Assembly: GCA_964276515.1 (NCBI GenBank)
Contig: OZ193909.1
Span: 18,600,001-18,664,000, forward strand
Direction: 5' to 3'
Length of the DNA stretch: 64,000 nucleotides
DNA from: Gordius albopunctatus
Lineage: Eukaryota
In this document: positions 14,750 to 53,650 of the stretch, piece by piece
Layout of the letters: each line of letters starts with the position of its first letter
Position numbering within the stretch: position 1 is the stretch's first letter
Notes under the pieces: model-generated
Told to the model about the DNA's origin: nothing
The model's database searches: none
The model's input: the letters and a program-made list of their open reading frames with translations, nothing else
Position numbers and translations under genes: made by a program

Positions 14750-14950
14750 CTATAAATGAAACTGGCCGGGAAATGTCCGATATTTTTAAAACGAAAAGAT
14801 ATTTTAGGAATCTGAAAAAGCTATTTTACCCCTGGCCGCCCTGGGCATCTACGGCTAAATTTTCGCGCGAATCGGGCCGGTAGTTTCAGAATTTAGCCCT
14901 TATCCACATACATACACACATATACTTTACTTTATATATATAGATATAGA
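14750..14950 (-). mobile_element. possible Helitron-type non-autonomous element end
   Basis: Minus strand starts atctatatatataaag followed by a gtat/gtgt microsatellite, typical of invertebrate Helitron-like repeats. No clear 3' hairpin located. Confidence 0.4.
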
Positions 14951-15289
14951 TGGCGCTATATTTATTAAACAAACATGCTATTTATTTTAGAATGCTGTTT
15001 TTGATATTTACCCATTCAATATTTTTTATTTACCTTTTTAAGATATTTAATTTAAAATCACGAATATCTATATATTCACTACTTTACAATGGGCAGAAAA
15101 AAGTGTACACATTTTGTGCGTTGATGAGCAGTCTATCTAGTCTATGCCTATAATATTGCTATTAACTTTTATGAAACAAATTTCGATACCAAATTGAGAG
15201 ACTTAATCTAAATGTCGGATCTCTCGTGGTTAGTAACAATCAATTTTTGCCTTAAACGCATAAATTATAGCTTTTTAGTCCGCAAATAT

Positions 15290-20356: not shown

Positions 20357-20710
20357 TTCCTGCTTATACAACAACTCCATCCATTTATAATGTTGAATTT
20401 TTAATTCAAGAAAGAAAAACATAATATAAACTTTTGTAAAATTTAATGAATTATGGAAACTAAAGAGATTCGTCAAGACATGGCTCTAACCAGGTCAAGA
20501 TGGAAGAGACTCATCAAAACAAACCCCACCAATGTGGGACCAAATAACTGATAAAGAAGAAGAAGAAGAATGAATTAGAAGAATTATTAGGAAATTGGTG
20601 TTTGGTATAACTTATGTCTTTCTTAAAAATTAAATGATGATAGAATAAGTAAATGACTACCGTACTATAAGAAACAAAAACGTTTTTCCAAAGCATTAAA
20701 AGCACCATGC

Positions 20711-26104: not shown

Positions 26105-27609
26105 AAGGAAATCTAGAAAGCCCCATCATTTTGCTTTCAATACTATCGTTGTTCTAATATAATTTTGATTGCATTACTATTCTCATTGTCAGCGTTACAG
26201 CTTAATTGTCAAATTAATTTATTATTTAATTGTTAGTTGTCCATAGTTGTTTGGAATCTTTTTTCCTTTCCTTTTTATTGCAGCTTAGAGCAGAAGCCTT
26301 AGCTCCTGAATAACCTTATATTCGTGATATTTAAAGATAGATGAGGGTATAGGTTTATTTTACTTTTTGTTATTTGCTTATGTCAATTAGTTAATTTGTT
26401 AGAAATTTCCATCCACAAACGTATTAATATTACACTCACACATGTTACGTGAATTCCTGCAATAAATTATTTTTTGTTTGAAAAATTAGCGTTGAAAAAG
26501 GAAACTATTTGGAATTAAATCCATTTGAAAATTTTGATTATTTTCTTCCGTTTAACTTGCCTTTCTGCCTCAACTATTTTATCCTCTTACTCAGTCTTTC
26601 CATATCCTTTACTTTTTGATTTATATCATTCGCATCCTTGCCAAGGATATAATCATACCACTTCAGTAGAACCCTGACGGAACGTCCGAAGCCCGGGCCG
26701 GGCTCGGGCTAAAAATTAAAATTAATCTGGCTCGGGTCGAGCCTGATGAGTCAACACGGCCCAAGGCGAATTCTAGCTAAAAGATTTTTTAAACACTCTA
26801 CTAATACTTTTATTGAGTAGGTTATATAGAGGAGACAAAAAGGGGGGCAGAGAGGGGCGATCCAATAAGTAGTGATGTTAATGGTCACGTGTTATTAGAC
26901 CCATGCTAATGAGTATTATTTAACACAAATTTTACCATCATCTATCGTGAGAAGCGCCTCTCTATTATAAGGTTTTTTTACTCTCCTCCTCAGTGGCATA
27001 TCTTATTTAAAAGAACTAATAAATGGTATAGTTGTTGTTGATTGTAGCAATGTAATATGTGCCCAATCTTTTAGTTAAAGTTGACATAATCACTCTCACG
27101 AGTTTAACTAAAACGACAGCACACAGCTTGTTGGCGAGTCTCTATGCCAAAATAATGCACAAGTCGACGGCTGGCATCATATCCACATTTAAAGGCTTCT
27201 AAGGAAAATAATAATAGCATTTATGGTATGGTTATTCTATGCACGCTAAAATATCGTTATTGTACACCCATCGATGCGCTCCATAGCGCGCCCGTAACAA
27301 CAAATCTTAAACCTTTTATAACTCATCAAGACTTCGTAGCTTTCTATCCCCCCATTTTTCTCCATCATTTGATTTAGTGCCAAGTGTGGGGTCCATTGTG
27401 AAATTGTCGGCTACAATTTTAAATTGTTAGCCGATATGATTAGCTCAATCTAAAACCTCGTTCTAGCTGGTGGCAAGTTAACTCGATATGGTAATTGCCA
27501 CACGTCTTAAACCTTTTCTTTATAAAAATATTATAATGACCGCTCTCCATTCATTTCAGTCATATTTCTGCCGATATCTTCTATAAAAATATCATCTTAA
27601 TATGACACC

Positions 27610-28661
27610 CTATCTTGGCATCCTATCCATGTTTCAATCGGTGGTTTACTTTTTGGGTTTAAAGTGGGAAGGAGAAAGTATTGCTACAAAGTACTGCCTA
27701 TGGGGGCAAGCTTCTCCCCTTACGTCCTGCAACAGGTTATGCTAGACCTATGCAGCAAGTCCGTCACAACTTGCCGCTATAATGTGTATTTGGACGATGT
27801 ACTAATATATGGCCCATATTACGATTTGATCAAGAAAAACACACGTAGATTCCAGAGAATGTGTACGTATTGGAATTCGACCATCAACTATGAGAAATCC
27901 ATTGTCACCCCTACACAACATCTATCCTACCTGGGGATCGACATCAACTTAGAAAGACATCAACTCAATATCAATGACAAATTCTTCGAGAAAATCGATT
28001 CGGCAGTTAACATAATGACGTATTTCACCCAGCCCAACACAAAGCCCCATCCACTGGTGACACAAACTACGTCTATATGGCTACCGGCTGGTCAAAATTT
28101 CTTTCCCCCTGGTATAACGTCTTTTTAGGAAATACACCAGTTCCCTTCAACCACCACTGGATGACGATTAAACTGCTAGAATTACGGGAATGCTTGACGT
28201 TTCCCCTCCCAATGCACATCACCCTTTCTCACATAGTAGCGGCCGATGCATCTACTTCCCACCTGGGGATAGCGTTCAGAGGATCCCTGATGTCCATCTC
28301 TAAGAGCGATGCAATGGTAGCCTTCCGATGTCACTCCTTCATACCCACGATAAACCTGCTTGAAATGCTAGCCATTCCGTTGGCACTCCTGAGGGTTGAA
28401 AGCGAATTCCCCAATACAAAACCAAAAATCTGCACTGACTCCAAAACAGCATTTTACATCTTTAAGAAAGGATCGGCTCATGCACCGCACCCGGAGGAAG
28501 CATTCTCTAAAATCTTCCACTACATCGGTGGTGACAGGATGATGACAATCAAGCAAGGATTAGAATGGGTCCCCAGAGATTCCAACCCAGCGGACTTTCC
28601 GTCAAGGACATGGGTACCGGACCTTAACAGATGGCACGAAATTAGGAGCCTCATACTATAA
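27610..28661 (+). mobile_element. 5'-truncated RT-RNase H of a hepadnavirus-like or tyrosine-recombinase-type retroelement (one frameshift)
   Basis: RT: WHPIH..FGFKVG..YCYKVLPMGASFSPYVLQ, VYLDDVLIYG, INYEKS..LSYLGIDIN. RNase H: VAADAS, INLLEMLAI, ICTDSKTA..KKGS, EWVPRDSNPADFPSR. Frame change near 28077-28128. Confidence 0.8.
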
Positions 28662-30554: not shown

Positions 30555-31644
30555 ATGGACCCAGTTTCAATCGGGGTTGCTATTGTAGCAGTTGTAGCAT
30601 CCATCGGCTGGTACAAATCTTATCGAACGAAAAATCAGGTTAGATTTATACCTGAAATATTAGTTATTCAAATAGAAATTGATAAATTGTGCTCCAAAAG
30701 TAAATGTCATGATTCCAATATATAAATTCTTACTATATACTCCTAAACAGATTAGATATGTAAATTATTATTAACTAGTCATGTAAAAACAGCTGGGTTT
30801 AGTAGACCTTTGGGTTTAGGCTACTAAACATAATTTTTCCTTAACAACCTCCAGGCTTAGTCGAAATTTGAGGGCGGAACAGATTCGACAGTTAGGATTA
30901 GTTGGATCAAATGTCGACCAAACAAAACCAGCTGTTTTTACAACACTATACTATTAACTACGCTTTTATAAAAATTAATTTAGAGTTACTCAAATAGTTC
31001 ATATTAAATATACAATCATTTAGAGTTAATTTCAAACTTATAAAAAATTTGCATATAACTGATTTATTGATTTGTCAAATTATTTTAATATTAACAATGC
31101 AAAATCATAAGTTTTGATTTATTTTAATTGCTATGCAATTCATGGGCTCGTTTAATAATTAAATATCGATTTTATCTCAAATAGATGCCTGAATTTACTA
31201 CCCTAAAATATAAAATTCTTTTTTTAATCCGAATTTTAAATTAATCATAAATAATAACTTGAATTGCTTTACAATATGCATTTTTCATATTAATTGCTAT
31301 GCAATTTATGTATTTATATAGTAGCATCAATCTCATTTTACAAATTTCATTATACGATATTTAAACCATTTAAGAAACCTAGCTCAAACATATTAAATAT
31401 AATTTTCAAAATATAGAAACAAGACGGCCTAAAAAAATTGAAGAGCTCGCTAGACGAACACAAAAAATTAGTTGAAGATGCGAAACAAAAAAGTGGTAAT
31501 ATAACGGGTCAAATTGATAGGTTGAAAAAGATTGCTGAAGATGCTGATAAAGATTTGGATAAACTTCGACAAGATTATCAAAAATTAATTAAAGACAACG
31601 AAGAATACAAGAAGAGAGTTGACGCCATTAAAACTGCTCCATAA
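30555..31644 (+). CDS. small single-pass membrane / coiled-coil protein of unknown function, 2 exons, 103 aa
   Basis: Exon 1 30555-30638 (MDPVSIGVAIVAVVASIGWYKSYRTKNQ, donor CAG|GTTAG) splices in phase 0 to exon 2 31417-31644 (acceptor atatag; KQDGLKKLKSSLDEHKK...DAIKTAP*). AATAAA at ~31683. Confidence 0.75.
30777..30947. mobile_element. short MITE in the intron of the orphan gene
   Basis: tagtcatgtaaaaacagctgg ... ccagctgtttttacaacacta inverted ends; related to 20201-20356. Confidence 0.65.
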
Positions 31645-33132: not shown

Positions 33133-34114
33133 CAGGCGCCCGTAGCCAGGATTTTCTCAAGGGGGGGAAATTTCAAAAAAAAATTTATAGCATTTTTATT
33201 TCAACAACAAAAATATAAACTCAAAAAATATAAAATTTGCATATAAAATAAAAATAAAGTTATTATAAAATAATTTTATATTTTCTTTTACCCATTGATA
33301 AAATATTAAGAACTTCATCGGGAGTAGGTAGGAGCTAACTCCCGATGAATTGTCAATAAAACCAATCCATTTAATCTATTCTTAGACATGGTATTTCTAA
33401 TGTAAGTTTTTAGCCTCTTTAGCGTTGAGAAGCTTCGTTCATTAGTACATGTTGTGATTGGAAGGCAGACTGATAGATATAGAAGAGTCGTTATATTTGG
33501 TAGGGATTTTAATATATTATGTTCGGATAAAGCATTCAAAGGATTCTTTGGACGAGATCCTTCTGAGATCTTAGATAAGGCCATATACCAGATATTGAAT
33601 TCTGCTATGAGATCTTCATTAGTCACTTGGAGATCATTTACATAAAACTCCGATAGAAAATTTATTTTTAATCGCGTTTCTGGTGAAACAATAAAGGAAT
33701 TTTGGGCAAATAAAATTTGGAAATTTTCCAAAACTTGTTTCTTGTCCAGAAAACGTTCATTCAATTGTGTAATTAAATTATTATCACTTAATAGAAACAT
33801 AAAGCATTATAATTAATTATTCTTAGAATAACAAATTACTAGCTGTGGTGTCGGATGATTTGATGGAAAAAAAATCGTGAATTTTCATTTTGCAGGTGAA
33901 CAATTGAAAAAGGAAAAAGACAGAGATGGTTCATAGTATTTTGGTCGAAATTTAATTCAAAAACGGAAAATAATATTTACTTAATTTATAATTAAAAATA
34001 AATTAATAAGTGTTTTACTTAGTCATTTATTGTAACTATAAAATAAAAACTTTGAATCTAAAAAAATTTTTATAATTTTTTTTTTAAATTTTTGCCAAGT
34101 TATTTACGCCACTG
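33133..34114 (-). mobile_element. internally deleted hAT transposon (Tip100/ZMYM1-like C-terminus)
   Basis: Perfect 8-bp TSD atttaaag (33125-33132, 34115-34122), CAG...CTG ends. ORF 33315-33800 has LPITTCTNERSFSTLKRLKTYIRNTMSKNRLNGLVLLTIHRE. Confidence 0.9.
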
Positions 34115-37139: not shown

Positions 37140-37693
37140 GGTCCGGGTCGGTTTCGGGGCACCCGTGCAGGTCTCTAATCTAGACATATGCCGAGAAAGA
37201 TTTTGAAATTCAATTAGCCAGAAATTCGAATTACATTTACGAGTAATGGAATCTTCTTACCTTTATATTTGTGCTTACTTTTCTACCATGCGGTGCGGGA
37301 TCATCTAAATTAAAATTTGGCCATTTTTCTTAATCTTTCCCAACGCTAATACATATTCTCACAAATTTAAAAGATATTATATATTCAGAGGGGGGCAATA
37401 ATGATATAGGAGTGGTCAAAGTGATCATTTTTTGAAAATTTAACCATAATTTTAATAAATTTTGGATTTAGAGGGTGTCTACGCTGATATATATATTTTT
37501 TTAAATAGCATATAATAAGCAACTGGACGACTAGCAATGAAGCAATAACAACTTACTCTATTATACCTACCATTCTCGAATGATTTACATATGTTAGGTA
37601 ACAATTCTGTTTTCTTTACCTGCTGCTTTCCTCTACTAAGGTCATAAATCGTATTCGCACCAGTCTTAGTTCCTTCCTTTACACACATTAAAG

Positions 37694-37848
37694 CATGGGC
37701 GTAGCCAAGGGGTGGCACAGGGAGGGGCGACTGTCCCCCCCCCCCCCCTTATATATAAATTCTCAAAAAATTTAATATAAAGCTTGAATTTAAAAAAATA
37801 CTCCATTTGTCTCTCCCTAAAGCATTATTGCCCCCCTTCTAGCCCATG
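37694..37848. mobile_element. MITE family A copy
   Basis: catgggcgtagcc...tagcccatg with near-perfect 8-bp TSD cattaaag/cattaaaa, supporting hAT origin. Confidence 0.75.
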
Positions 37849-39042
37849 CATTAAAAGAAATAAAATATATTATAAACGCTAAATAATATAAAAATTAACT
37901 TCCCAGATTATTCCCAAATTAATCCTATATATGTTATTATAATCGTTATTTTCAGCTAATTTTAATTTGTTTTATCAGAATTTTGCCATAAATTGCATCG
38001 CATGAAGTTGTCTTGTCTCATCTAAATCTAAATAATGTTGCCCTGAGAGCTAAGCTGCCAAGCGTTATTTATTGCAGTCAAGCGACGACTATGAAACTCG
38101 GATGTTAGATATTGCCAACCTCCTTTGTTGATGTAATAAATCAATTGCCTCCATTTTATACATAACTAAACTACTACAAAGTCCTAACGCATTTTCTAAA
38201 TGCCCCGAAATATATGTAATTTGGGAATAATCTTTTAAAGAGTGCTAAATTTACGTATATTTGAAACATTTTTGATTGAACATTCATATAAATATTATTT
38301 TGTTTTGAGATATAACAGGTTTTTAAATATCTTCTTCACGGCCGCCAGGATTTAAATCGCAGAATGGCGGTACTAATTCAGCGAGGGCCAAATTAATAAT
38401 TTTTAAATATTAATTTTTGTTATATGTTAAATATTGTTTCACCTAACGGGGGCAGCAGCTCTACCCTACCTCCCCCTGGCTATGGCCACACACAAGTATA
38501 AAATTTATATTTTAAATATCCACATTTATATAAAATCAAAAAAAAGTTTAAGCGTCTTTTAACTACATTTTAAGCTATATGAATTGCGTTAAATTAATTA
38601 CATATTTATTTCACTACATTTAATTTCAAAGATTTTTGTAAGCCAGGGAGTCGACCAGTTAAAAACAAAAAAAAATTAAAATTCCAAATTCTCTACCCCC
38701 CCCCGCCTCCCCAGTTTTCATTTCTCAATAATTCGCTATGAATTAATTTATCGTGACAAATTTTGAAAAAAAAAAATATTCCCTCGCCTCAATTACATCC
38801 ATCTATCGATCGATAGGGGGCGGCGGCTATGGCTTTAATGTCCGGCCTGCCTACAGTTTTATCTGTCCAAAAAAGGGCTATTATAATTCAAACTCCCCAA
38901 CTAACCCACCCACAAACCCCCCCCCCTCTTTTTATTATTATTTTTTTGCTGCTACTACCGAAGAAAACTTTCGCCGAACCTCCTCTTTGTGGCCTGCAAA
39001 AAAGAGGAATGGAATATAATTTAGGGCTATCGCGAGACTATT

Positions 39043-39168
39043 CCTTTGATGCGTTTTCACTTCCCTTCTATCTCGCTCGCACTCTTTTGAAAGCCAGCCG
39101 CGTGCCTGATTCAAAGGCAACTTCAAAGGACCGCACTACCGACCCACATCAAAGGCGGGTGGCGCGGC
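39043..39168. promoter_or_regulatory. cluster of TCF/LEF HMG sites with Helper-like motifs (candidate Wnt response element)
   Basis: CCTTTGATG 39043-39051, TTCAAAGG 39110-39117, CTTCAAAGG 39121-39129, CATCAAAGG 39147-39155. RCCG/CGGY motifs at 39097 (GCCGC), 39130 (ACCGC), 39138 (ACCG) and 39161-39168. Confidence 0.65.
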
Positions 39169-39199
39169 CCACTTGGTTTATTAAGAAGGCTTGAGGGGG

Positions 39200-40182
39200 G
39201 TGGGATAATCTTTTAGGGTAAGCAGAAAGAGGGAGATAGAGAGAAAATATTTATTATTATTTTTTAGCTACACACATAAATTTTGGCCAGAAAGCTATAT
39301 GATGTAGTCGAGAGGGTTAGAGAAAACGAGTGAGATGTGCGGGCCGGCCTTGTTTACACCATACATACATATATAAATTTAATATGATAGCCGCAATTTA
39401 GCTAGCTTGCTGCCACCAACAAACTGCCCGCGATTTTAAGAGAGCGAGAGCACATACGCCATAGTTTTTTTCCCCTATAAAACAGTTTTCGGGCAAAACA
39501 CCGTATTTACGACTTGCACCCTCGGCGCTCCTCTGTAAAATGCAAAATTATCGGTTCTTCCAAAAGCGCCTTTATATTTCCTATTAAATTTAGTAGGGGA
39601 AGAAGGCTATTATTTATTATTATCTCTGAATAAAAGGAACCGCGCCCGGGCTTCATGCGGGGCCGGAGAAAATTAAGGCAAATGAAATTCGGACTATTTT
39701 TTACAGCGGTTGTTTATAACCTAATTTAGTCGATTAATTTAATATTTATACCCAAAGGAATGTCTTTAATTGGGGTAATTATGACCCCATCCTTCCCACA
39801 TTATGGTTGAAGACCGAAATTCTAAAAGACCACACTTAGTATCATGGTTCCAGCTTGCCCCCCCCTCGCTTCGCTATGAAATATTTATTATTTGATGGAA
39901 AGTGAAATTTTCTCTTTCAATCTCTCGTCCTTTGTATAAAATACGTTACCGCGCGTCAACAAAGACATAAAACACATAAAAAGAAAAGGCTCATTTTTCT
40001 CTTATTCCATTTCAAAAAATATATTTTCCCCTCCGTTTGAATAATTTTACTGCCAGTGGAGCAAAAAAATAATTTATCACCTAGGAAATCAAGTCCAATT
40101 TATAGAGGGAGAGACGTTCAATGAAAAAATGCCCGCGCTGAGCTCCTTAAATTCGTCTTGAAACCGACACTTGACATATTAG
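39200..40182 (+). promoter_or_regulatory. probable promoter and non-coding first exon of the Frizzled-like gene
   Basis: Locally GC-richer and free of recognisable TEs, with GAGA-rich tracts (~39228-39450), TATAAAA at 39476-39482 and ~39935, and a strong donor AG|GTAAAT at 40182/40183. The Frizzled ATG at 42550 directly follows an acceptor-like ttatcag. Confidence 0.4.
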
Positions 40183-42549
40183 GTAAATTTCTTCAAAGTT
40201 TTCATTTTCTCCTTTCATTTTTTATGTGTAATAAAAAGTATACTATTTGAAAATATATATTAAATTGTCCTTTAATTTAATAATATATTATTGTACAACC
40301 GTGAAAAGTAAATAAACATGGGAAAAAAAAATTAAATTTTAATTACACCTGGCGTGTATTATGTAATATTGTGTAATTTTGTTTTAGAGTTGTCCATATT
40401 AACTTAATATGATTAATGACATCGCGAACGCGATACTGCTTGTTAACAAGTTGTGGTTTATCTACACGTTATAAATTAGGATTTATATGCGATTCCTTAA
40501 CATTTTTATTTGCTTAATTAGGTTTTAAGCGTTATTTAAAATGAGTAATTTATTTAAATTCATTAAATCGTATAGGTATTGATAAAATTATGCAAAGTAA
40601 CACTTTCAATTTTGGGATTATATTGAAAATTCTGCGAAAGCCATCAGGCTAAATTATTTCTATATTTCATCATTATGTTTTAATATTATTTGTTGGGAAG
40701 TATACTCAAATTGTTTTTAAAAGGACTCTTATATTTCGCTTTAGTTTAAATAAAATTATTATTAGAAGTTAATATATGACATTCTATCTCTATTAGGAAT
40801 GTTCTCGACCCGAAACTATTCATAGCAGTTTAAAATTCTTGTTAACTACAAAAATTAGCATTTTTAATTATAGCTTTTATGACAGAACGTCGGGGAATAA
40901 TAAAACTAAATCATCCATAATTATTATTATAGATTATATCATTAGAAAACAAATGCAAATTGGGTAGGAAATATTTCATTTTTTTTATTATTTCTTAAAG
41001 CATAACATGGAAATTTGAAAACTACTATACTAACGACAAGCTACATATAAATAATATGTAAAGTATAATTTGAAAATTTTATATAAAATTCTTCATAACT
41101 TATATTCGATTTTAAATAATCCTAAGCTGTTAAAAATCATTGAATTTACGGAATTTAGCACAGGAACCCCAATTTTCTACCATAATTCATCATCATAAAT
41201 TATTCCCATATTAATAATGGCTAGCCATGCGTAAAAAAGAGGCCTACAAATTTTTCATATCGGCATTTTCCTTTGATATATTAGTAATAATAATAATAAC
41301 CGTCGCTAAAATAAAAAAAAATTTGGGCTTGAAATTCCCCTAAAAGCAGCATGAAAGTCAAAAGAGGAATTTGAAATATAGAAATTGTAAAATAGTGTGC
41401 ATGAGAAATAATGTACGGATGGGGTTAAAAAGGCTATAAAACTTTTATTTTCCAAAATCAGGAATTATTTATGGCCTTTACTCCCGTAATATATTTCAAC
41501 TTTAAAGGCTCCCTTAGCTCTAGGCCCAGTGTGTTTAATATGCTTAATGGTTATTGTGCTCATTTTATGACTCCCTTTTTATTGCTTATTTCTACTTTTT
41601 TCGTTTTGTTTCGTTCCCATGTGCAAAGAGAAAGGGACTTTTTAACAATAAAAAAAAGAGTAAATTGCCTCCATAAATCAGTCCACCCACTCCACATAGA
41701 TTTGGGAGAGATTGTGGTTACCCGACTTTGTTGCTAAGCACAAAACGTGCACACGTGTAAATCAAAGGGAAAAAATAACCGGGTTTGAAATTTGCCCCAT
41801 TTAAATTTAATTTAATTATTCCGAAAGACATCTCATAAATTCTTCCTATAGGTCTTATATAAGTAACTGCATTTTTTTTTAAATTTACAAATATGTTAAC
41901 TGATTTAGTCTTAGAAAGCATAATTTATTTGCTTTTCTCTTTTAAATCCCGAAAGATTATTTTAAATTTCATATAAAAATGTACATATTTTGTGCAGGTG
42001 ATTTTTTTAAATTTAGATTATAAAATAGCATGAGATTTTCTAATAAGGAATCGGGGTCAACTATGGAGTTGAGATTCATGAATATAATTTTGTGTTTGCA
42101 ATTTGTAAATATATATTTATTTATTTTATTTTTTATCAACTTACTCAAATATAAAGGGATGGACATAGCCAGCATATTAGAGGGGGCAAAAATGATTTAA
42201 GGAGGAGCCCAATGATAATTTTTGGAAATTTTAACATAGTTTTAATAAATTTAAAAAAATACGCCCACGTATAAAGGCACTAACTAACTATAACAAACTT
42301 TTTCGATTGCATATTATCATGAATTTGATGGAATTGATATTGGACAGGTCTAAATTAAAAATTTCAAATTTTATACAGGTGTCATATTAACGGTCGAATT
42401 AAATATTTAACACCTTACTGCTTAACATAATTTATGTTCAATCCTTATAATATACATAATTTTCATATTTTTTATGATATATTATTACAAAAATAATTTG
42501 TTGTTCAAATTAAACTTTTCTTATTTTCTCCAAAATATAATCTTATCAG

Positions 42550-45500
42550 ATGGACAAATTATTTTCCGAACTCCTTTTGGCCATTTTGTTGTCACAGTGG
42601 CCATGGTTCATCGTATCCCGATGTCAAGATGTTACATCTAATTTAAAAATTGCCCCCAATCTCGACTTAGAATATTCGACGAGGCTCGAAAATAAATCAC
42701 TTGATGACCGACACGTGACCGATCGGCGGCTGGACAGAAAGAAGAGTGTCAAACTTTACGAAAATGTCCAGGATTTATGGATAGCTCAAAATAACTCTTC
42801 CCTCACCGCACTAGTCCCAAAACTCAAGCCAAAACTTTCGAACTCGTCTATAAAGCTAAAAAATTCCCAGGTAAATAAAATTTTTTTATTTCATGTTCTC
42901 TTTTTGGAAAAAATATTAAATACATTTTTTGTCTCACGGCAACGACCACTCTTACAACCTTTGGTCCGTCCAACCTTTGAAAATTATTAAATAACTGGGG
43001 AAACAAATTTCTTTGCTAACCCATGATAATCGCGATTTTTTTTAAAAGAGAGAAAATCTGCGTTATACTATTTTTAAATATGAATCAATAGCAATATCGG
43101 AATGTTTTCCAAATATTTGTTATACTTAACTTTTTTATTTATTTCATTCATCTTTACAAAATATGTAATTTACCTTAATAAATTAAATTAAAACATATAT
43201 AAAGGATTTTATAAAAAAAAATTTAAAAACCTTTAGTGTAATTAAATACAAATTATTACCAATATATAAATAGATTTAAATTTTTCCAAAACTATTTTTA
43301 AATATTTAATATAATTAATTTTTTGTGTTTTTCTTAATTTTGGACAGAAAAAATTAATCGCGAATCACACTTACGCCTGGTTGAAAACTTTGTTTTCCGT
43401 CATGCCGCATCGCTCGAAAAACAAAGCACCGCCTATTGGTCACATGATGACCGATCATCAGGTGACCAGGGGCTTTAGAAAAAAATGGGCAAATGGATCT
43501 AAGGTTTTGGTTACAAAATTTGAAGGTGAAAAGACTTAAAATTTCACAAAAAATTTCGATTTATTTTTTAAAATATGTTTGAAACATTATTTTTTTATAA
43601 AGGATATGTCCATTTTTTTATAACAGTCTTAGCCTATTTACATAATTCAATAAGTAATACAAAAGTTACGAGATTAATTTCTATATTAAAATAAATCAAA
43701 AAATTTTGACCCCTTAAATTAATGAAAATTATATAACTTAATTAAAAAATTTGCAAATAAAATTTTAAAGCGATTCTTTTAACAGATTTAATTTAAGCTT
43801 TGTTAAGAGTTTTTTGCGTAGATAGTTTTAGGATTAGAGGAGGAGAAGCAAATTGTTTATTTAAGATTAACCATAATTTATAATATATCTCATGTCTTTA
43901 ACTATCTCCAACCTAGTCCCATAACACACACAACCTAAGTTACTACTAGCAATTATCTACCCTAACCGTTCAATTCCAATTTCTTACTTTTTATATTTAT
44001 TTACACCGTCTTTGAATGTAATTAATTCTATTTTTCTTACATACATTTGAAGAATCAACGCGCTCGACAAAATTAAAAACGACATCCCCACCAGCACCGC
44101 AACTTATCAAAGTGCAATCTTCACATCCCTTCCATCACAATACTCCTCCGCCCGATCCATTATTCCCACATTTGATTGAAATTCCCGATGATTCAGAATC
44201 CTTCCCCAAACAAGAAAAAGGTCCATTTCCTATTGAATCACCTCATTCGTCCTCCTCTTCGTACTACGAAACCTGGATGATTATCATAGCTAGTGCCTGC
44301 TTTGCCACCACCTTGATAACGCTTTGCACGTACTGGCTCGAACCCGGGCGTTTTAAATACCCTCAAAAACCGATTATTTACTATGCCACCTGTTATTGGA
44401 TCCTCTCGACTGTCTATCTCATACATCACCTACCCACGTCAAAAGTAAATTCCGCCGGCCTCGGCCCGCCCCTTCCTCCAGAGTGTAGAGAATCACGTGG
44501 GGTGACGGCGGCGGATGAATACGCTTGGACTGGCAGGTCGGCGGCCATCTTCGTTTTATACTTATATTTCGAAGTAGCCGCTTCGCTTTGGTGGGTAACG
44601 CTGGCGCTATGCTGGTACCTAAGTGCGGGTCGTAAATGGAGCAGGGAGGCGGTACGTCAGCTGACCACTTGGTATCACGTGGTCTGTTGGACCGCTCCCG
44701 CACTCTTGACCATAGCGGTCTTAGTATCCAATACTAAACCTAATAGCCCCGGGCACCCAAACTTGAAGATTAACCCGGTTCGAGCTTATTTCATACTGAT
44801 CGGACCCCTCATTTTAACGCTGACCTGCGGTTCTCTCCTTGTGTTAGCCGGTCTACTTTCCCTCAAAGCCATTAAAAAAGCTATGAAAAGTTGTCATACC
44901 AGCATTACTAATTTAGAACGACTCACCTTCAGAATATCATTGTTCGGGCTGCTTTATGTTTCTTTCAAACTCGCCCTCCTAGCTTGTTTCGCTTTGAAAG
45001 TACCTCAGCACCATTACTCTAATGCTATCGCGGATCGACAATCTCAATCAATACTCAATTTGGGTATGGGGTCTTCTGGACCCCCCCAACCCCTGGATAA
45101 GATCATAACGTTATTACCACCCTCCCTAGGTCTAATACTTTTTTTCTCCCTATCTTCCGGTATTTTTACCGGTATATGGATTTTCAACGCCAAAACCCTC
45201 GAGGCCTGGTCCAATTTTTTTGCTTTAGCTCGAGTTATGGTCAAAGATTTTCTGTCCCTAGCCCTTAACAAAAAGAATGACAACTTCGTTACTACTGGCA
45301 ATTGTAGCACGATGTACTGCAAGGTTAAAAGTCAAAAATATCAGCCTTGTTCTTGCAGTGGGTGTTGTGTCGAAGGAAATATTGCCCATTCGGCGGGTAT
45401 GTTAACTCCTAGGTTATTGGATAACGAAATCCCATTAATGCCGACGACTAATTCTTTTAGAACTATCCCTGCCCGGTCCTCTTGTCGTCAGCACTCAGTT

Positions 45501-45566
45501 TTTTCACGTCAATCATTCCCCACCCAATCGGTATTACCTAGGGTGCATACGAAATGTTACGGATAA
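42550..45566 (+). CDS. divergent Frizzled-family 7TM receptor lacking the cysteine-rich domain, ~670 aa
   Basis: Predicted exons 42550-42870, 43348-43525, 44053-45566 (2013 nt, GT-AG, in frame; the exon-2 donor was chosen by phase). Signal peptide-like N-terminus and class-F motifs RFKYPQKPII, YFEVAASLWWVTL..WYLSAGRKWSREAV, YHVVCWTAP, LERLTFRISLFGLLY, GIWIFNAKTLEAW. Confidence 0.88.
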
Positions 45567-46335
45567 TAGCATAGCATAGCCCCCTTAGCACTTATGCATA
45601 ATGGTTGTAATCATTCTGGTGACGATCTTCGCGAAGTTTTCAGAAATAGGACAAACACATGAATGAGAAGTTCACTTTTTAGCCTTAATGTAAAATTTTG
45701 TCCGGTGATTTCTACTGATTTACCTCAAAACTTAAACTTAATTTTTCCCTGTTCTTTTTCAATGAAAAAGACCTCGTTTTTCGTAATGTCAATTTTTTGT
45801 TCTAATTGATATTTTAATATATATAACATATATTTAGTTAATTATTTTAACATTTTTGTATAAATTTAATACTATCATCATACGTTTGTGTATCAAACGA
45901 AATAATTGACCATCCAATTTTATATGCTTTATAATATATGAACACTATATTAATTATTACTACTGTAATTATTTATATTTCTATCGTTTAGACCTGTGAT
46001 GATCATTCAATAAATATATGTCTAGTGACTTTTTACAAGTTTGATACATTCATTTTGCAAAATATAATGTTAATTTGACGGTTAAGTAAATCGATTTCTA
46101 CCTAGTTCATTTTGCGGGATCTTTTTTTAATATTGGTTAGAGTAGGAAAAATATTTAATGTTTATCAACGTTCCGTTTAGGTGTATATTTATAAGGATTA
46201 AATATATGTAATGCACTTATAGTATAATCATGGTAATCCAAAAGTGTTTAAAATTTGCAAAATAATCCTTTTCCTCTGGTATAAAAATTTAATTAATGTG
46301 CTAAACTTTTCACCCAAATATTTGATCATCTCTAC

Positions 46336-47321
46336 CAGAGATCTGCACGGGCAGGCTCGGACAGCGCACGGGCCTTAAAGCCGGGCCCGCGAGAGGGTAC
46401 GGACATGCAAAAAAACTTAACAGGCCGGGTTCGGGCGGGCCAAAAAAAGGATTATAACAAGCTTAAACGGGTCTAAAATTCTGATATGAATCCTTGGTAA
46501 TTAAAAAATTATAAGACAAATTATAATAAGATGGCCTTAATTCGTATATGAAGGTGTAAGTGATAATTATTTAATTATTGAACTCATTTAGGGAAGATTC
46601 TTGCATTTAATTTGCTAATATTGATTTTATATAATATATGACTACACTTTTACATTACTTATTAAAATTGCTTCTCTATTAAAAACTAATTAATTAAAGT
46701 TTAAGACATTTTTCAATGCAATTATGCAAATAAAATGATAACTAACTAATATAGGTATTTACAGGTTTATTGCATCTTAATGGACTTTTGGCAATTTCCA
46801 GAAATTAAGATTACACTTAGGAATGACTCTAGACGCAACTCATTTACATAAAGATCTTTAACTCTGAATATTCATTCGAATTTTTGAATGATAACCTTCG
46901 AAAAGTCTTTTCAACCCCAATGCTTTATAAAAAAATCAGGGTTTAATGTTAAAAATGGGATGTTGAACAAATACAACACTCGGGGTCACTAATGTAATAA
47001 AGAAGTTTTTTAAAATAATATCTTAACAGATCAGGGTGTGGCTTATAGTCAACCCTTTAAAATATCCACACACATTCAATTGCTCGAGATATTTTTTTAT
47101 TAAAATATTTGTAAAGTAGCAATAAAGTAGCTTGAATGTTAGATTTATTAGTGCGAGACGGGCCTGAATAGTATGAAAAAAAAATTACAGGCCTGCCCTG
47201 CCGCTCCTGAAAGTTTCCACCGAAGTGCCCACAAAAAAGTAACGGGTGGGCTCGGACTGGCCTTAAATTTGAAACGGGTACGAGAGGCTGACTTCCTAAA
47301 AAGGGCCGTTGCCGATTCCTA
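46336..47321. mobile_element. hAT-like non-autonomous element
   Basis: Perfect 8-bp TSD atctctac (46328-46335, 47322-47329), imperfect TIR cagagatctgcac / gttgccgattccta, GC-rich gggcc subterminal repeats. Confidence 0.75.
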
Positions 47322-50300
47322 ATCTCTACCCTATAAAGCCATTTAAAACAATAAGCCATAACTCTTTTTTCATTTTAAAATACTTTCATCAGTTAAAAAG
47401 AATATATGTGTAAGTTATACAAAACCAAGTAAAAAAATTTTTTAAAAAGGCAAAGATTTACTAGCGTGAAAATAGATATTGATAGTATCAATTGCTATAT
47501 TCTTAAACTCTCCCCTAGGAAAAACTGCTATTGACTTTGATTAAAATTTTTAAGGATCTGCCGGCGTTGCCCAATTTCCAAAGATTCCTCTAATTTTTGC
47601 TTAAACTAAAAAGTGGCACCCTAATCGCTAAATATAATTTCAAATTCCTGGCCGATAGCTGGCCGCTTTACACGGATGATACACACTCACTTTTTTTCTG
47701 TATCTTGTTTTTATAATGTTTATAACTTCAAATAAAGATTATTTTAAAAAAAATTCTATTATAAGACATAAAGAAGAGCTAATTAAACTCCTCTAATAAC
47801 CAAACTAACAATAATGGTATAAACTACCAACAAAATATACTCGATTTTTTACCTCCCCCACTCCCCTACGAAAATCGCATGGCAAATTCTAAACTCTATA
47901 CAAATTATAGACGCACAAACCTGACAACTTAAGAATAAGTTTATTATTTTTATATTTCTCTAAAAGTAGATCGAAAGATTGTATTACAATATATGTATTA
48001 ACCCATCAAATTACACCTCTTAACGGGCTGAAATATTTCATGGGGTATATTGGGCCATATCAAACCCACCAAGATTAGTACATTAAAAATTCTTAATTTA
48101 GCGCACACATTTATCTTTATTAGGGGTTAAATAGATTTTGCTTTTTCATTATTTTTTGATGTGTTCAAAGAGCTACGAAGGGGGTCCACGTTTCCCATCA
48201 TGCAAACTCTAGAAGACTGTTTGGTGGTTGTGGTGTTGTGGGTTCACGACGACACGCATTTTATTATTCGCTTAATTATATGATAATTTATCATAATGGC
48301 TCCTCACAGCTACCTCTCGCGCGGTTCGCTTTGAACTTCGCTACGGCGTAAATGAATCATACAAAAAAGCTATAAGCCGCAAAAGAAATGACAATATTTT
48401 GGGGTTGCTTGGCTGGAAAGAAAAAGAGGACTTAGCGGGGGTAAACAAAAATGAAATAATTATGATAAATTATCTTAATATACCATCTCATCACCCCCCC
48501 TTTCCTTGTCTTGAACTGATTCCAACCCAACATTATCTATCACGAACTAACCCGACGATAGCTAAATAGATTGTTGGAACAAAGTGAGATGGATGGTTTT
48601 TTGTATAGCATGGAACGAGAAATATATTAAGTATATCATAGTAGTAACACTTATGTATTTCATGCCGATAGATAGTTTATTTTTTTAAAGTTATTTATGT
48701 AAATGCAACATAAGTCGTTCTCGTAAGACTATATTTTTAAGAGGAAGTTGGCAGTACATCTATAATCCAAGTTAAAGGATGATTTTGGAAATTTTATTTA
48801 AATGGCGGATAGTTTAATAATAAAAATATTTTTTTAATGTAGATAAGCTTATAATGTTGATGTATCTTTAATTGATTATTTTAATATTTGAAACTTTTGG
48901 TATTTTCAATAGTAATTTAACACCGAAATTTCAATAATATTAGCATTTATAAGAATGCTTTAATGTTTCCCTTAATCTTTTACGTTATGTTTATACCACT
49001 ATCTGCAATGATTTCCAGAAGTCGGATTATAAACAAACAACGAAAGCAGGATTAAAAATAATTTATTAAAAATGGGGATAAAAAGGATTTTGATAAAAAA
49101 TGGCTCTTTTTACTAACTTTAACTCTTACGTGAAAAAATGTAATTAAAATTCATATTTTAATTACATGGTATGGAATTAACTAAAAAACTTTTGGAAGGA
49201 TTAATGCGAAGTTTAGATAGCCAAAGGATTTCTTTATAGCCTTTTTTGACAATTTATTTTAATTAAAATATAAAATTAATAAATTATTGAATCAAAGTAT
49301 TGCCTTATCGCTTTGAAAAATATTCAGCTATTTTCATCGAGAAATTTATGAAAAATCTTATAATTATTTTTGACTTTTACAATAAAATTATCTTTAATGA
49401 TCTGTAAATATTTACCCTATAATTTCGCTCGAGTATTTTAAAATTTAATCAAAAATGTTATTTTTAACACCATATATAAATTTCCATCTTTATAATTAAA
49501 TAAAAATTAATGGAAAATACATTTTATAACTATATATAATTGCTTAGTTCGTAATTTTAAGTTTGATTTGCTTTCGCAAATGTATTTGTTTTTAGACGAG
49601 TCGATGAGATAGAATGTAATTATACGCATTAATTTTCTAATTCTTCTACCTGCCCCGTTAGCAATGAGAGTCAATTAATAATTTATAAGAAGGGAAAAAG
49701 CTTTAAAATTTGTGTTGATGTCAATTGCTGTAAAGCACTCACGAAACTCTATCTTATCTAGTTTTATCCTCTAAAAATATATTTAATTAATTAAATTGCG
49801 AAAAGATAAACTCAATTACAAAATTAAATTTGAGAAATTAATAATATGTGATATTTAATATTTTTTCCTCAATAGCTTTTGTATTTTATACTAGTAAATG
49901 TGGTCTAAATTTTAAATTACAGTGTTTCCCACAAGTTTAATACCATTAAAGATAAAGAGTTAACTTGTTTAAAGAATCAAAAAACTTTTATGCATTTTAG
50001 AGACTGGTTAATTTTATTTTTTGGGGTGAGTTCGCTGGTGCAATCCTGTTTTATAAAGATTTGAATTAAGTATTGGCTATTTTGAGTAAATTTGATATAT
50101 TTGAAAGATATATTTATTAAGAGCTTGGTTGAAGCCTTAACAAAAAATTAATTCCCTATTTTAATACCTTAAATAAAGATTGGCATTGAAAACATTAGTA
50201 TACTATCGATGTATCTATCATTTTTAATAAAAATGTCATTAACTAACTAAACGTTTGAAATTTTACAAATAACTTAATAATTAATAAATGGTTAACAGAT

Positions 50301-52933
50301 AATTTATTAGCCCTTTATGTTTTCATTCCTAAATATTGTTCCAGAAAATTTAAATTTGTTTTACATTTTTATCTTTTATTAGCTTTCAATATTATTATAT
50401 AAATCAGTTTGGCTCAGGTCGAACCCGGACCGGAGTATTAATAATTAATATATGGTTTACACATTCAGCTAATTGTCGTTGCCGAAATGGTATAGGGAAT
50501 ATAAAGGAAGTTCTATAATTTACGAGGAATTATATAATATTGGGGCATGAATGGTGGTGGCAGACTGATTTATAGTTTTAAATCAATGTTTTGAAGAAGT
50601 GTTCTCCAAAATTGATTTTATTATTATTAGATATAAATTTTAACCGTTTAAATTGCTGGTTTCAATTAAGAAAGTTTTAGTTGGTTAAGGGGGAACGGCG
50701 GCAAAATGTCAGTTAAGATTATTGTGTGTCGTTTGCAACCAATTTGAAGCTTATTTACAAACAAATTATTTTATTTTAGTGGGAAGGTCGCCTTGCTCCC
50801 CCCGCCCATACCAGATAGCTCATGTATTGTTTCTATTAGTTGACGTTTATAATTAATTTTTGTTTAGCGGTGTGGTTTTTTTGAAATTATTGCATGAACC
50901 CTAATGGAAACCTTAGATCGTGTTTACATGATATTTTAATAGTAGGCTCCTTTTATTTAAGAAATTGTTTAATAAAAGCTTTAAATTACCCAGTAGCATC
51001 ATAAGCAAGCAATTATATCCCAATATATATTTAAATGAACAAATATAGAGCTTAAAAGTAAATTAAAATTACGCATTTGTAGTATATACATGGATTTGGA
51101 ATGGAATAGACTTATACTTTGCCTAAATCCAACTTTATCTATTTTGTGATTTTAAGACCAAAAAGTATCATTTCTAATCTTACTTAAAGACCTCTTAATT
51201 AAAATTTATTACTATCCACAAAATAATTGTAAGCTTAAAAATCTGTTATAGATTGTTAAGCTTTAAAAGGTTTGTTTAATTGTTATTATTATTATTAGAT
51301 AATAATGTTTTATTATTTATAAAAATTTACGATGGTTTAGTCAGTAGGCAAGAAGGGGCAGCTGCCCCACACAATAGTTAACAGAATTATGGTTATATTA
51401 TAAACATCTTGCTCCCCCTTGAACTACTCAAAAAATTGTACCCCATAGATACCTTCTTTATATAAAATCCTACAAAATTTAGCCTTAAAATTAAGTTAGC
51501 TCAGTATGCGATAAGTAATATAATGGTGATTACCTAAAAACATATGTAACACCACCTTCTAAAAGTGTACAATTCAGATAAATTATTATCTCTTAGGATG
51601 TATAAGATTTTTCTTATACATTATTTATCATACGCCGAAATCTAATATGATCATAACGTATAGTAAGTAGTTAAATGGTTAAAAATTATAACCAGCATAT
51701 AATTTGTAAAACAATTATTTCTATTATGGAACTTTTACAATTGAAATATCACAATTTTTATGTTATCTTAATGTTAATGCCCTCATGCAGATCAAATATC
51801 ACTAATTAGTTCTAAAAAGGAATGCTTAATGCTTAACGAAATAACTGTTATCAAAGTGCATATCTTGCTGACAAATTAATATAAAAACTTCGCTTTTTAT
51901 CTTAATCTCTATATTCAAAATTTATCTTTTATTTACTGATAAATTTTTCATTTTGCATGCATTGTAGACCTTACTTGCTGATGAAGCTAACTTAAAATGA
52001 TAGTAGTAAAGAAACCATTAAATTACTTTACATTATAAAATATAGCATGTGAGCACAAACCTCTTTTCAAATCATTAGTTTGATTTAACTTTAATAACTA
52101 TTTCATTCGTTTTTTAATGATTATTTATGCTTAAATAGTAATCTTCGACTTGTTGTAAACCTTAATTTTTTGAACAAAGCTAAACAGTAAGTTATTTTTT
52201 CCTTATCTTTTCATTGAAATCATAGTGTAAGACTATATCTATGAAATAATAAGTTTAAGGCAGCAACATCAAAGAGATCATGTGACGGGGGGGGGGGCAA
52301 ATAATAATTCAAACCGAATTAAATTCAAATTAAATTTTTCATGGACGATGAGCATTACTTTGGTTAACACGAACAATAACATGTAGGCTCATAAATTAAA
52401 TCTATGTATTATGTGCACAAAAAATTGTGAATTTATTTCCTTACCACTTCACCTATTTTAAAGGCAATGACATTTTTATTTTACATATTTCATCGGACAA
52501 TATTCTAGCCATGTAATTTTCGATCTAGGAGATTCAAAGGAGCTGAGCTTTATAATGGAAATTTCTTTCGAATTCATATAAAAGTTCAACAGGTTTCCTA
52601 AATCTTTGTCTACTTTCTGGGAAAAAGTTTAAATATCGATTTTAGGACTTACGAATAACGAGAGAGCGGATAGGAAATGTCGCTTAAATGTTGTGCGTGC
52701 TGGGTAAAAGAGACAGATTAAAGGAATATCTTTTTGATTTCTTTTGAAATCGTGGATCGAGGTGGTTTTTGTCTTTTGATTAAGCATAAAGAATAAATGA
52801 AAGCCACTTTGTATTTATATGTGTGTGTGTATTTAATTTAATTCTTTCCGTCCTCCTCGACGTGTCATGCGGTCCCATGCATTATTAAAATGAGACTCGT
52901 TGTGAGTTATAGCTAAAACAAGGGCTAATTTAG

Positions 52934-52990
52934 GTGAGACATAGAGACAGAGAGAGAGAGAGAGAAAAGAAAGGAATAGGGAAAGAAACC
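52934..52990. repeat. (GA)n microsatellite / purine tract
   Basis: gagacagagagagagagagagaaaagaaagg. Confidence 0.7.
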
Positions 52991-53650
52991 CAATTGATTT
53001 ATGGTTCCCATTAATAATGGAAAAAGTAATGATAGCATAGAGATTGATAAGGTACCGATTGAGTTATTAGTTGCTTATTGTGAAATCCTTTTTCCTTTTA
53101 CCTTTCCCACTGACAGAATGGAAAATGAGGAAAAACGCCTTTAAGCTTATAGCTAATATAACTGGACAGATTTATTAATCGAATTAAAGACCTTTATTTA
53201 TTACATTATTCCTGTGAGAACATTAGGCCCCTCGTACTAAGTTCCCGATTTAAAATCCAATAAAATTTTTATACCTTTGGGACAAATGCGACATAAATAA
53301 ATTATACAAATAATTTAAACAGGATGTGAGACATGCCTTAAGAATTATAAACAGACTTAACACTATTAAAACAATTATAAAGATTAGAAATCTATATGAA
53401 ATTGATTAAAATGTAAATTCCATTACATGAGATTATCAAAAATCTATTAAAAGTTAATATACAGGAATAGTAATTTAACTATAGTCAGCCGCACCTTTTT
53501 TAAGACATAAATTTTTTTAAATATTTCATCAAAAAATAGTATATATATATATATATAACTGCTAATGTTATCGCTATAATAATTTTTAATTAACTGTTGC
53601 CGAAGTGAAGATGAGTTTTAACCTTTAAATTTTTGGTTGGTGCACAAAAG

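What the first reader, a model, noticed from the sequence alone, without database searches (positions are those of the whole stretch)
39043..45566. Candidate feedback module: TCF-site cluster upstream of a CRD-less Frizzled
Seen: four CCTTTGAW-type sites in 113 bp with interspersed RCCG motifs lie just upstream of the probable promoter of a Frizzled that has no CRD but keeps KTxxxW. Established: TCF binds CCTTTGAW via its HMG box and RCCG Helper sites via its C-clamp; KTxxxW engages Dishevelled; Drosophila fz3 is a Wingless-induced attenuating receptor, although it has a CRD. Inference: a Wnt-induced receptor that cannot bind Wnt through a CRD but can still recruit Dishevelled would be a cell-autonomous feedback regulator (sink or ligand-independent scaffold). 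I know of no described natural example, but cannot search to confirm.
Basis: partly seen in the sequence, partly recalled or inferred. Interest (0 to 1): 0.85.

Follow-up and report, generated by a model that had tools for sequence, protein, structure and literature searches.

The report
Hairworm Frizzled lacking its Wnt-binding domain
A predicted three-exon gene, likely from a horsehair worm, encodes a Frizzled-derived membrane protein with no Wnt-binding domain (its closest relative, from the hairworm Gordionus, has none either) but with the residues that dock Dishevelled in human Frizzled, and it lies behind a tight cluster of TCF-type DNA sites, so it likely acts as a Wnt-induced brake that would tie up Dishevelled.

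Summary
The observation mostly holds. Four CCTTTGAW sites lie in 113 bp (39043-39155); no shuffle of 300 reached three. The RCCG 'Helper' motifs are at chance level. The nearest protein among 1.84 billion is an 'uncharacterized' Gordionus (hairworm) protein that also lacks the CRD. Both have lost the near-invariant TM3-ECL2 disulfide and most conserved extracellular-loop residues. Both keep all seven FZD4 residues that contact Dishevelled's DEP domain (identical or conservative), KTxxxW and the 6.32/7.55 switch. Both replace the TM6 hinge residues P6.43 (with F, as in Smoothened) and G6.34. They group, with moderate support, with Fz9/10. So CRD loss is real and shared by two divergent lineages. 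Wnt induction, Dishevelled binding and the sign of the feedback are inferred: no RNA, no ortholog DNA. My searches of the paper library found no natural animal CRD-less Frizzled. Best reading: a Wnt-induced, ligand-blind Dishevelled sink (0.35).

The parts
39043..39155 (.). Cluster of four CCTTTGAW (TCF HMG-type) sites: 39043(+), 39110(-), 39122(-), 39148(-); a fifth near-site CTTTTGAA at 39084; single copy
   Evidence: single-copy depth
39097..39168 (.). Four RCCG cores between and beside the sites; degenerate, not enriched
38700..40182 (+). GC/CpG-richer single-copy island, likely promoter plus non-coding first exon(s); donor-like GT at 39218 and 40183; TATA-like words at 39476 and 39935; further CTTTGWW at 39929 and 39956. 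Start site unknown
   Evidence: inferred, no RNA
41270..41768 (.). Two more CCTTTGAT sites (41270 +, 41761 -) in the predicted 5' intron; a further site at 42974 in the next intron
42550..42870 (+). Predicted coding exon 1 (107 aa): ATG right after an AG, hydrophobic residues 4-22 (likely signal peptide), then Cys-free basic S/T-rich stalk; donor CAG|GTAAAT, phase 0
   Evidence: no Pfam or Atlas hit
43348..43525 (+). Predicted coding exon 2, no Cys; phase 0 to 1, the only reading that puts exon 1 in frame with exon 3; 3' end uncertain (a stronger-looking donor at 43462 would shift the frame)
44053..45566 (+). Coding exon 3: Pro-rich Cys-free stalk, seven TM helices (PF01534), helix 8, 114-aa tail, stop
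44628..44933 (+). Intracellular loop 2 (W, E at FZD4 335/338) and TM5-ICL3-TM6 (FZD4 L413, I416, L420, L430, L433 equivalents L, I, M, L, L) and R6.32: DEP-contact residues
44964..44966 (+). F at 6.43 (P in 95 of 102 other Frizzleds, F in 0; F in Smoothened); S at 6.34 nearby
45192..45209 (+). KTxxxW motif (KTLEAW), preceded by W7.55

Best explanation
This is a predicted hairworm gene for a protein likely descended from Frizzled 9/10 that has no cysteine-rich domain and no extracellular disulfide but keeps the DEP-contact residues, and it likely works as a Wnt-induced, ligand-blind brake: TCF/beta-catenin would switch it on through the site cluster, and the protein would bind Dishevelled at the membrane without Wnt being able to bridge it to LRP5/6. 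Shown: the site cluster, the open frames, the absence of a CRD and of the disulfide in two species, the retained contact residues, the P6.43F and G6.34S changes. Inferred: the splicing, that the cluster drives this gene, that Dishevelled is bound, and that the net effect is to draw Dishevelled away from signalling-competent Frizzleds (cell-autonomous negative feedback). My odds: gene and CRD loss real 0.9; TCF-driven about 0.7; attenuating rather than boosting or neutral about 0.55.
For: Cluster beyond chance. No CRD in six frames of the window or in the Gordionus protein, control E 9e-54; Pfam finds PF01534 only. TM3 Cys (101 of 102 other Frizzleds) and ECL2 Cys (102 of 102) both replaced in both hairworm proteins. 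Conserved extracellular-loop columns kept 3 of 17 and 5 of 17 against 18 of 28 and 21 of 28 intracellular (Fisher p 0.005 each; lowest other Frizzled 9 of 17). 7 of 7 FZD4 DEP contacts kept, 6 identical here. Stalks of the two proteins are not detectably alike (p 0.21), which fits an unconstrained spacer. CRD-less FZD7 does not answer Wnt3a. P6.43F lowers Wnt3a reporter output of FZD4 and FZD5, and G6.34, proposed as the back-up hinge, is also replaced. Insect Fz3/Fz4 act as attenuators; fz9/10 expression is usually complementary to anterior fz5/8.
Against: No RNA run, so splicing, start site and induction are untested. Helper sites are at chance level, and in flies HMG-only clusters give little expression in vivo (PMC4154663). 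P6.43F also reduced DVL2 recruitment by FZD5 and FZD6 (not FZD4 or FZD7), which would weaken a sink. CRD-less Drosophila Frizzleds can transduce Wingless (second-hand), and CRD-less FZD7 signals when bridged to LRP6, so the sign could be positive. The intracellular face is itself fast-evolving (18 of 28, among the lowest). Conservation of the cluster in Gordionus could not be checked.
Confidence: 0.35

Rival explanations
1. Ligand-independent polarity or scaffold receptor: it recruits Dishevelled for planar-polarity or other beta-catenin-independent output; the TCF sites only place its expression in the Wnt-high (trunk/posterior) domain and there is no feedback on canonical signalling.
For: Same anatomy. 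Fz/PCP in the fly wing is Wnt-independent. A non-canonical role has been proposed for Nematostella Fz10, though that paper found no clear support.
Against: Recalled, not from a call: the CRD contributes to fly Fz polarity function. P6.43F strongly reduced DVL2 recruitment by the PCP-type FZD6.
Confidence: 0.2
2. Positive feedback: once induced it sustains or boosts canonical signalling, Wnt being held by LRP5/6 (or heparan sulfate on the basic stalk) while this protein supplies the Dishevelled dock.
For: CRD-less Dfz/Dfz2 rescue Wingless signalling fully or partly (second-hand); CRD-less FZD7 is signalling-competent when bridged to LRP6; all DEP contacts and the 6.32/7.55 switch are kept; stalk is basic (K+R 33 vs D+E 20; 20 vs 8 in Gordionus).
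Against: CRD-less FZD7 did not answer Wnt3a; the loops that survive in engineered deletions are eroded here; P6.43F lowers output.
Confidence: 0.17
3. Receptor for a new ligand: a Smoothened-like straight TM6 opens the helical bundle to a lipid or small molecule (own or host-derived), or the remodelled outer face binds a new protein partner.
For: F6.43 shared by both hairworm proteins and by Smoothened; Gordionus has large Cys-bearing insertions in loops 2 and 3.
Against: P6.43F alone did not open the lower pocket in FZD6; the outer faces of the two hairworm proteins share nothing detectable, which a conserved ligand site would not predict.
Confidence: 0.1
4. The two halves are unrelated, or the model is incomplete: the TCF cluster serves another transcript, or a CRD is supplied by an exon outside the window or by a separate secreted gene.
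For: No RNA; exon 2's 3' end is uncertain; the whole genome was not available; a 121-aa ORF without Pfam match overlaps the cluster.
Against: Two other + strand genes lie upstream (BAP31 24.3-26.1 kb, a coiled-coil gene ending 31644), so a further-upstream CRD exon would need nested genes; two Gordionus annotations both start with a hydrophobic N-terminus and have no Cys in 141 aa; the disulfide loss lies inside the single 7TM exon and does not depend on splicing; the nearest other gene end is 7.4 kb from the cluster across repeats.
Confidence: 0.13
5. A decaying pseudogene or assembly artefact.
For: Very long branch (1.55-1.88).
Against: Frames open over 670 codons; contigs of runs X1 and X2 show no indel or stop in the exons they cover; of 8 coding differences 4 are silent and the 4 replacements fall in stalk, loop 3 and tail, none in a helix (small numbers, one study, one run may be the window's source); an intact relative at 40% identity.
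Confidence: 0.03

Closest known systems
Gordionus sp. m RMFG-2023 LOC135922879 (XP_065313456.1, XP_065313457.1; CAK9290220.1), annotated 'uncharacterized'
   Same: No CRD, no Cys before TM1, both disulfide Cys lost, DEP contacts and KTxxxW kept, F6.43 and S6.34; 25 shared rare residues (next best 9 and 7); clade 100/100.
   Different: Only 40% identical over 287 TM columns; shorter stalk (141 vs 241 aa), large insertions in loops 2 and 3, longer tail.
Frizzled 9/10 subfamily (class F GPCRs)
   Same: 7TM fold, KTxxxW, DEP contacts, R6.32/W7.55; best tree position.
   Different: No CRD, no linker cysteines, no TM3-ECL2 disulfide, P6.43 and G6.34 replaced. A derivative by descent, not a canonical Wnt receptor by the family's definition.
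Drosophila Fz3 (decoy receptor)
   Same: Works like it in outcome if the best reading holds: an attenuating Frizzled (PMC10560568 passages). That fz3 is Wingless-induced and belongs to Fz9/10 is recalled, not tested.
   Different: Fz3 competes for the ligand outside the cell; this protein has no ligand domain and would compete for Dishevelled inside.
Engineered CRD-deleted Frizzleds (FZD7, PMC7759383; Dfz/Dfz2, Chen 2004 via PMC2542364)
   Same: 7TM core with Dishevelled dock but no CRD.
   Different: Laboratory constructs keep linker, disulfide and loops; this is natural and has lost those too.
Dictyostelium Fsc (Frizzled/Smoothened-like sans CRD) and CRD-less Fsl
   Same: Natural class-F-like 7TM proteins without a CRD (PMC10445921 passages).
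   Different: Amoebozoan; only FslJ and FslK have KTxxxW; the hairworm protein scores PF01534 2.8e-57 against Dicty_CAR 0.01 and falls among animal subfamilies, so the loss is likely independent (Fsc not included in my trees).
Smoothened
   Same: F at 6.43.
   Different: phmmer E 1e-38 to FZD4 against 6e-13 to SMO; Frizzled-type ICL2, DEP contacts and KTxxxW, which SMO lacks; Foldseek ranks FZDs first.
Wnt-responsive cis-regulatory modules (TCF HMG plus Helper sites)
   Same: HMG consensus matches, clustered.
   Different: Denser in perfect HMG sites than PMC4154663 says natural modules are, and without a full Helper site nearby.

Membership tests
Canonical Frizzled receptor | Frizzled/Smoothened 7TM domain | tested here: met
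   PF01534 E 2.8e-57; seven helices, pTM 0.70; Foldseek top hits FZD7/1/4
Canonical Frizzled receptor | N-terminal signal peptide | tested here: inconclusive
   hydrophobic residues 4-22 after the ATG; no signal-peptide predictor; exon link inferred
Canonical Frizzled receptor | Ten-cysteine CRD (PF01392) | tested here: not met
   0 Cys in residues 26-236; CRD HMM from 61 hits finds nothing in six frames, best E 1.1; none in the Gordionus protein
Canonical Frizzled receptor | Linker cysteines and TM3-ECL2 disulfide | tested here: not met
Canonical Frizzled receptor | KTxxxW after TM7 | tested here: met
   KTLEAW 45192-45209
Canonical Frizzled receptor | DEP-contact residues in ICL2 and TM5-ICL3-TM6; 6.32/7.55 switch | tested here: met
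   7 of 7 kept (6 identical, L420 to M); R6.32 and W7.55 kept
Canonical Frizzled receptor | P6.43 kink in TM6 | tested here: not met
   F in both hairworm proteins; P in 95, F in 0 of 102 others
Canonical Frizzled receptor | Binds Wnt; recruits Dishevelled in cells | not testable with these tools
   needs binding and BRET assays
Fz9/10 lineage (descent) | Groups with Fz9/10 in a TM-domain tree | tested here: inconclusive
   72/81 under LG+G4, 91/92 under C20 mixture, neither starred; AU rejects union with Fz5/8 (p 0.009), Fz1/2/7 (0.009), Fz4 (0.005; that group held a sponge FzB); groups named after a first tree; long branches
Smoothened | F6.43 | tested here: met
Smoothened | Closer to SMO than to FZD; no DEP-contact residues | tested here: not met
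Dictyostelium Fsc | No CRD | tested here: met
Dictyostelium Fsc | Common descent with the Fsc clade | not tested
   no Fsc sequences in the trees; Dicty_CAR E 0.01 only
TCF Wnt-response module | Clustered HMG consensus sites | tested here: met
TCF Wnt-response module | Helper site (GCCGCCR) close to an HMG site | tested here: inconclusive
   only RCCG cores, 2-3 mismatches to the fly consensus, chance level
TCF Wnt-response module | Conserved in relatives; responds to Wnt | not testable with these tools
   no hairworm DNA reachable, no RNA
Fz3-type decoy receptor | Sequesters ligand through a CRD | tested here: not met
   no CRD

The most novel reading that the evidence does not exclude
Hairworms turned their Frizzled 9/10 into a new kind of Wnt-pathway part: a natural ligand-blind Frizzled, stripped of CRD, linker and disulfide and stiffened in TM6, that is switched on directly by TCF and acts from the membrane as a Dishevelled sink - an intracellular decoy built from a receptor, in a phylum reported to make Wnt-family proteins while it manipulates its host.
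Probability: 0.33. Interest if true: 0.85.

Novelty: new variant of a known kind. Interest (0 to 1): 0.7.

Why it matters
Whether the CRD is needed for Frizzled function has been argued from engineered deletions with opposite results. A natural protein kept without it in two divergent hairworm lineages is a ready test of what the 7TM core does alone, and it carries a natural P6.43F, so far studied as a designed mutant. If TCF drives it, it adds a new feedback design (a receptor body used as a Dishevelled trap). The public annotation of the relative is 'uncharacterized', so the case is easy to miss. Even if the mechanism is wrong, the shared CRD loss stands.

Tried and rejected
No whole genome held, so other Frizzled paralogs, Wnts, LRP, Dishevelled, TCF or a separate CRD gene of this species were not examined. 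No RNA holder listed; X1 and X2 behave as DNA (contigs run through introns, no splice joints). Three word-index protein searches missed the family (0, 1 and 1 hits); only the full HMMER scan found the relative. 30 of the 150 hits were looked up by name: one Gordionus cluster, no other hairworm protein, so whether Gordionus has CRD-bearing Frizzleds is unknown. Metagenome scan: 1 locus, an ordinary CRD-bearing Frizzled. ESM Atlas: Frizzled clusters for exon 3, no usable hit for exon 1. First splice models failed (donor 43462 is out of frame with every exon-3 acceptor; an off-by-one was corrected). Alternative frame of exon 2 scores lower (7.2 vs 10.7; weak; the first run had part of its training set out of frame) and has no Cys either. 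Intron inside exon 1: rejected, GC 0.41 against 0.14-0.26 for local introns. TCF cluster as a repeat or transposon piece: rejected, single-copy depth, no self-match. Two other hits with long Cys-poor N-termini are a RhoGDI fusion model and a 5'-cut model that keep linker Cys. Stalk and tail similarity to Gordionus not significant (p 0.21, 0.79). Zero substitutions in 37448-40563 against 16 in 43614-46993 in X2 may be haplotype structure and is not used. No complex prediction: no hairworm Dishevelled sequence was in hand. (bacterial promoter scan on 2 bases) was a mistake and is not used. Earlier-findings look-ups returned nothing.
Full report
Setting. The window is AT-rich animal DNA with many repeats; no whole genome is held. 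Two runs of one study hold the locus as DNA contigs.

The DNA element. Four CCTTTGAW sites lie at 39043(+), 39110(-), 39122(-), 39148(-), 113 bp in all. In 300 block-wise dinucleotide shuffles the best 120-bp cluster was 1 (282 times) or 2 (18 times); 0 of 20,000 local shuffles reached 4 and 1 reached 3. Of 420 permutations of the motif's letters only the TCF motif forms a cluster of 4 in the real sequence. The total of 11 sites is not unusual (18 of 100 shuffles), but 7 lie between 39.0 and 43.0 kb (post hoc). The element is single-copy. The four RCCG words are at chance level (6,270 of 20,000 shuffles) and differ from the fly Helper consensus GCCGCCR (PMC4154663, passages) at 2-3 positions. 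[quoted passage not shown] It sits at the 5' edge of a GC/CpG-richer island (38.7-40.2 kb) with donor-like sites at 39218 and 40183. The nearest other gene end is 7.4 kb upstream, beyond repeats. The start site is unknown.

The gene. All exon-3 acceptors before TM1 are phase 1. Exon 1 (42550-42870; ATG directly after AG; hydrophobic residues 4-22) ends in phase 0, and exon 2 from 43348 to the donor at 43526 supplies the shift, giving 670 aa. Exons are 39-46% GC, introns 21-26%; a small coding model favours the chosen frame for exon 1 (24.8 vs 14.4, 7.6) and weakly for the first part of exon 2, and is neutral on its last 64 bases. Residues 26-236 have no cysteine and are basic and S/T/P-rich with five N-glycan sequons. 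A CRD profile built from 61 hits finds nothing in any frame of the window (best E 1.1; control 9e-54). Contigs of X1 and X2 show no indel or stop in the exons they cover; 8 coding differences, 4 silent, none changing a helix residue.

The relative. A scan of 1.84 billion representatives gave 721 hits; the best (E 3e-47) is P0002, Gordionus CAK9290220.1, clustered with XP_065313456.1/-457.1, 'uncharacterized'. It has a hydrophobic start and no cysteine in the 141 residues before TM1, and Pfam finds PF01534 only. The genome preprint (passages) says its annotation used RNA-seq; I link it to this record by name and did not see the evidence for this gene. For comparisons I aligned the TM region of 104 rows: the window, the Gordionus protein and 102 others, after dropping 2 duplicates and 48 of 153 proteins lacking the anchors or under 270 aa. 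The two share 25 residues rare elsewhere (next best 9 and 7) and form a 100/100 clade (38 and 24 rows), which matters because both are long branches. At 40% identity over 287 columns the loss is likely old. Among 70 other hits with 170 or more residues before ICL1, the fewest cysteines are 3, in a fusion model and a 5'-cut model.

Outside lost, inside kept. The TM3 cysteine (101 of 102 others) and ECL2 cysteine (102 of 102) are replaced in both proteins; this lies within one exon and does not rest on the splice model. Conserved extracellular-loop columns kept: 3 and 5 of 17; intracellular: 18 and 21 of 28 (p 0.005 each); the lowest other Frizzled keeps 9 of 17 (loop alignment is uncertain, above all with the Gordionus insertions). 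The FZD4-DEP structure paper (PMC11369211, passages) names L413, I416, L420, L430, L433, W335, E338 as contacts; the window has L, I, M, L, L, W, E and Gordionus I, L, I, L, L, W, E. R/K6.32, W7.55, the ICL1 R and Y, and KTxxxW are kept. Both carry F at 6.43 (0 of 102 others; P in 95) and S at 6.34 (G in 87). In PMC8225760 (passages) P6.43F straightens TM6, lowers Wnt3a output of FZD4 and FZD5, lowers DVL2 recruitment by FZD5 and FZD6 but not FZD4 or FZD7, and G6.34 is offered as the back-up hinge. The AlphaFold model of exon 3 has seven confident helices, with stalk and tail under pLDDT 50 (it leans on the 50-row alignment); Foldseek ranks FZD7, FZD1, FZD4 above SMO.

Descent. With subfamilies anchored on named members (the other labels by grouping), the pair falls with Fz9/10: 72/81 under LG+G4 and 91/92 under a mixture model; AU tests reject joining Fz5/8, Fz1/2/7 or Fz4 (p 0.009, 0.009, 0.005). 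Groups were named after a first tree and the branches are long, so this is moderate.

Mechanism. Shown: cluster, open frames, shared CRD and disulfide loss, retained DEP contacts, altered TM6 hinge. Inferred: TCF/beta-catenin induces the gene; the protein binds Dishevelled without ligand; Wnt cannot bridge it to LRP5/6 (as for CRD-less FZD7, PMC7759383 passages); so it draws Dishevelled from working receptors. That parallels the attenuating insect Fz3 (PMC10560568 passages) in outcome but not in means. Against: CRD-less fly Frizzleds can transduce Wingless (Chen 2004 and Povelones 2005, seen only as cited in PMC2542364), and P6.43F can weaken Dishevelled binding. I give 0.35 to the sink, 0.2 to a polarity/scaffold role, 0.17 to positive feedback, 0.1 to a new ligand, 0.13 to unrelated halves or an unseen CRD, 0.03 to decay.

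What is known. Natural CRD-less class-F-like receptors exist in Dictyostelium (PMC10445921 passages), mostly without KTxxxW. Searches for an animal case: 0 papers; 1, engineered; 0; 4 listings, not opened; 1, amoebae; 3; two read as passages, engineered constructs; 2 ROR2 listings, not opened. Two hairworm genome preprints have 0 occurrences of 'frizzled' in the main text; their supplements were not seen. PMC4669655, PMC8664421, PMC9720753 and PMC11414264 (passages) gave subfamily and expression background; none of the passages shown mentions a CRD-less receptor. The library lacks most subscription papers, so 'not described' means not in these searches.

Verdict. Not a canonical Frizzled by the family's own definition, but a Frizzled-derived variant, real in two lineages, with a striking but untested TCF cluster. 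New variant of a known kind; interest 0.7.

Noticed in passing
window 24277-26104 (+): Complete BAP31/BAP29 gene, seven exons, 236 aa, ending KKSE; first intron only 36 nt.
   Followed up: partly
window 30557-30639 and 31417-31644 (+): Small gene: N-terminal hydrophobic stretch exon and a 74-aa coiled-coil exon; only generic coiled-coil Pfam rows below cut-off. Nearest gene upstream of the TCF cluster.
   Followed up: partly
window 43462: A second, stronger-looking donor inside exon 2 would give a 145-aa secreted basic peptide with a short out-of-frame tail; possible alternative splice or decay isoform.
   Followed up: partly
window 45343-45369 (+): Cys-rich patch in the cytoplasmic tail (CSCSGCC); possible lipidation site; not matched in Gordionus.
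   Followed up: no
P0152 (Gordionus) loops 2 and 3: Large Cys-bearing insertions (roughly 100 and 170 aa) where the window protein has short loops: the outer face has been rebuilt differently in the two species.
   Followed up: no
window 37448-40563: No substitution in 3.1 kb in either run, against 16 in 3.4 kb downstream in X2; constraint or haplotype structure.
   Followed up: no
window 38829-39194 (+): 121-aa ORF over the TCF cluster, no Pfam match, no clear frame preference; likely chance in GC-rich DNA.
   Followed up: partly
window 20710-23272: Broken gypsy-like retroelement (gag- and protease-like pieces in different frames) with self-matching segments at both ends; not checked that they pair as LTRs.
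   Followed up: no
window 27601-28661 (+): Reverse transcriptase piece overlapping an RNase H-like frame with a weak hepadnavirus polymerase C-terminal Pfam row (E 0.075); by recall this resembles DIRS-type retroelements.
   Followed up: no
window 9622-9966 (-), 33315-33806 (-), 12025-15868: hAT transposase remnants and LINE-type reverse transcriptase pieces.
   Followed up: no
window 47600-48600 and 52600-53200: Non-coding, slightly GC-richer islands in a long gene-poor stretch downstream of the gene, with single CTTTGAW sites nearby (48164, 48329, 52268, 52533); possible distal enhancers.
   Followed up: no
literature: Hairworms are reported to make Wnt-family proteins while manipulating their hosts (Biron 2005, 2006, as cited); any link to this receptor is speculation.
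   Followed up: no
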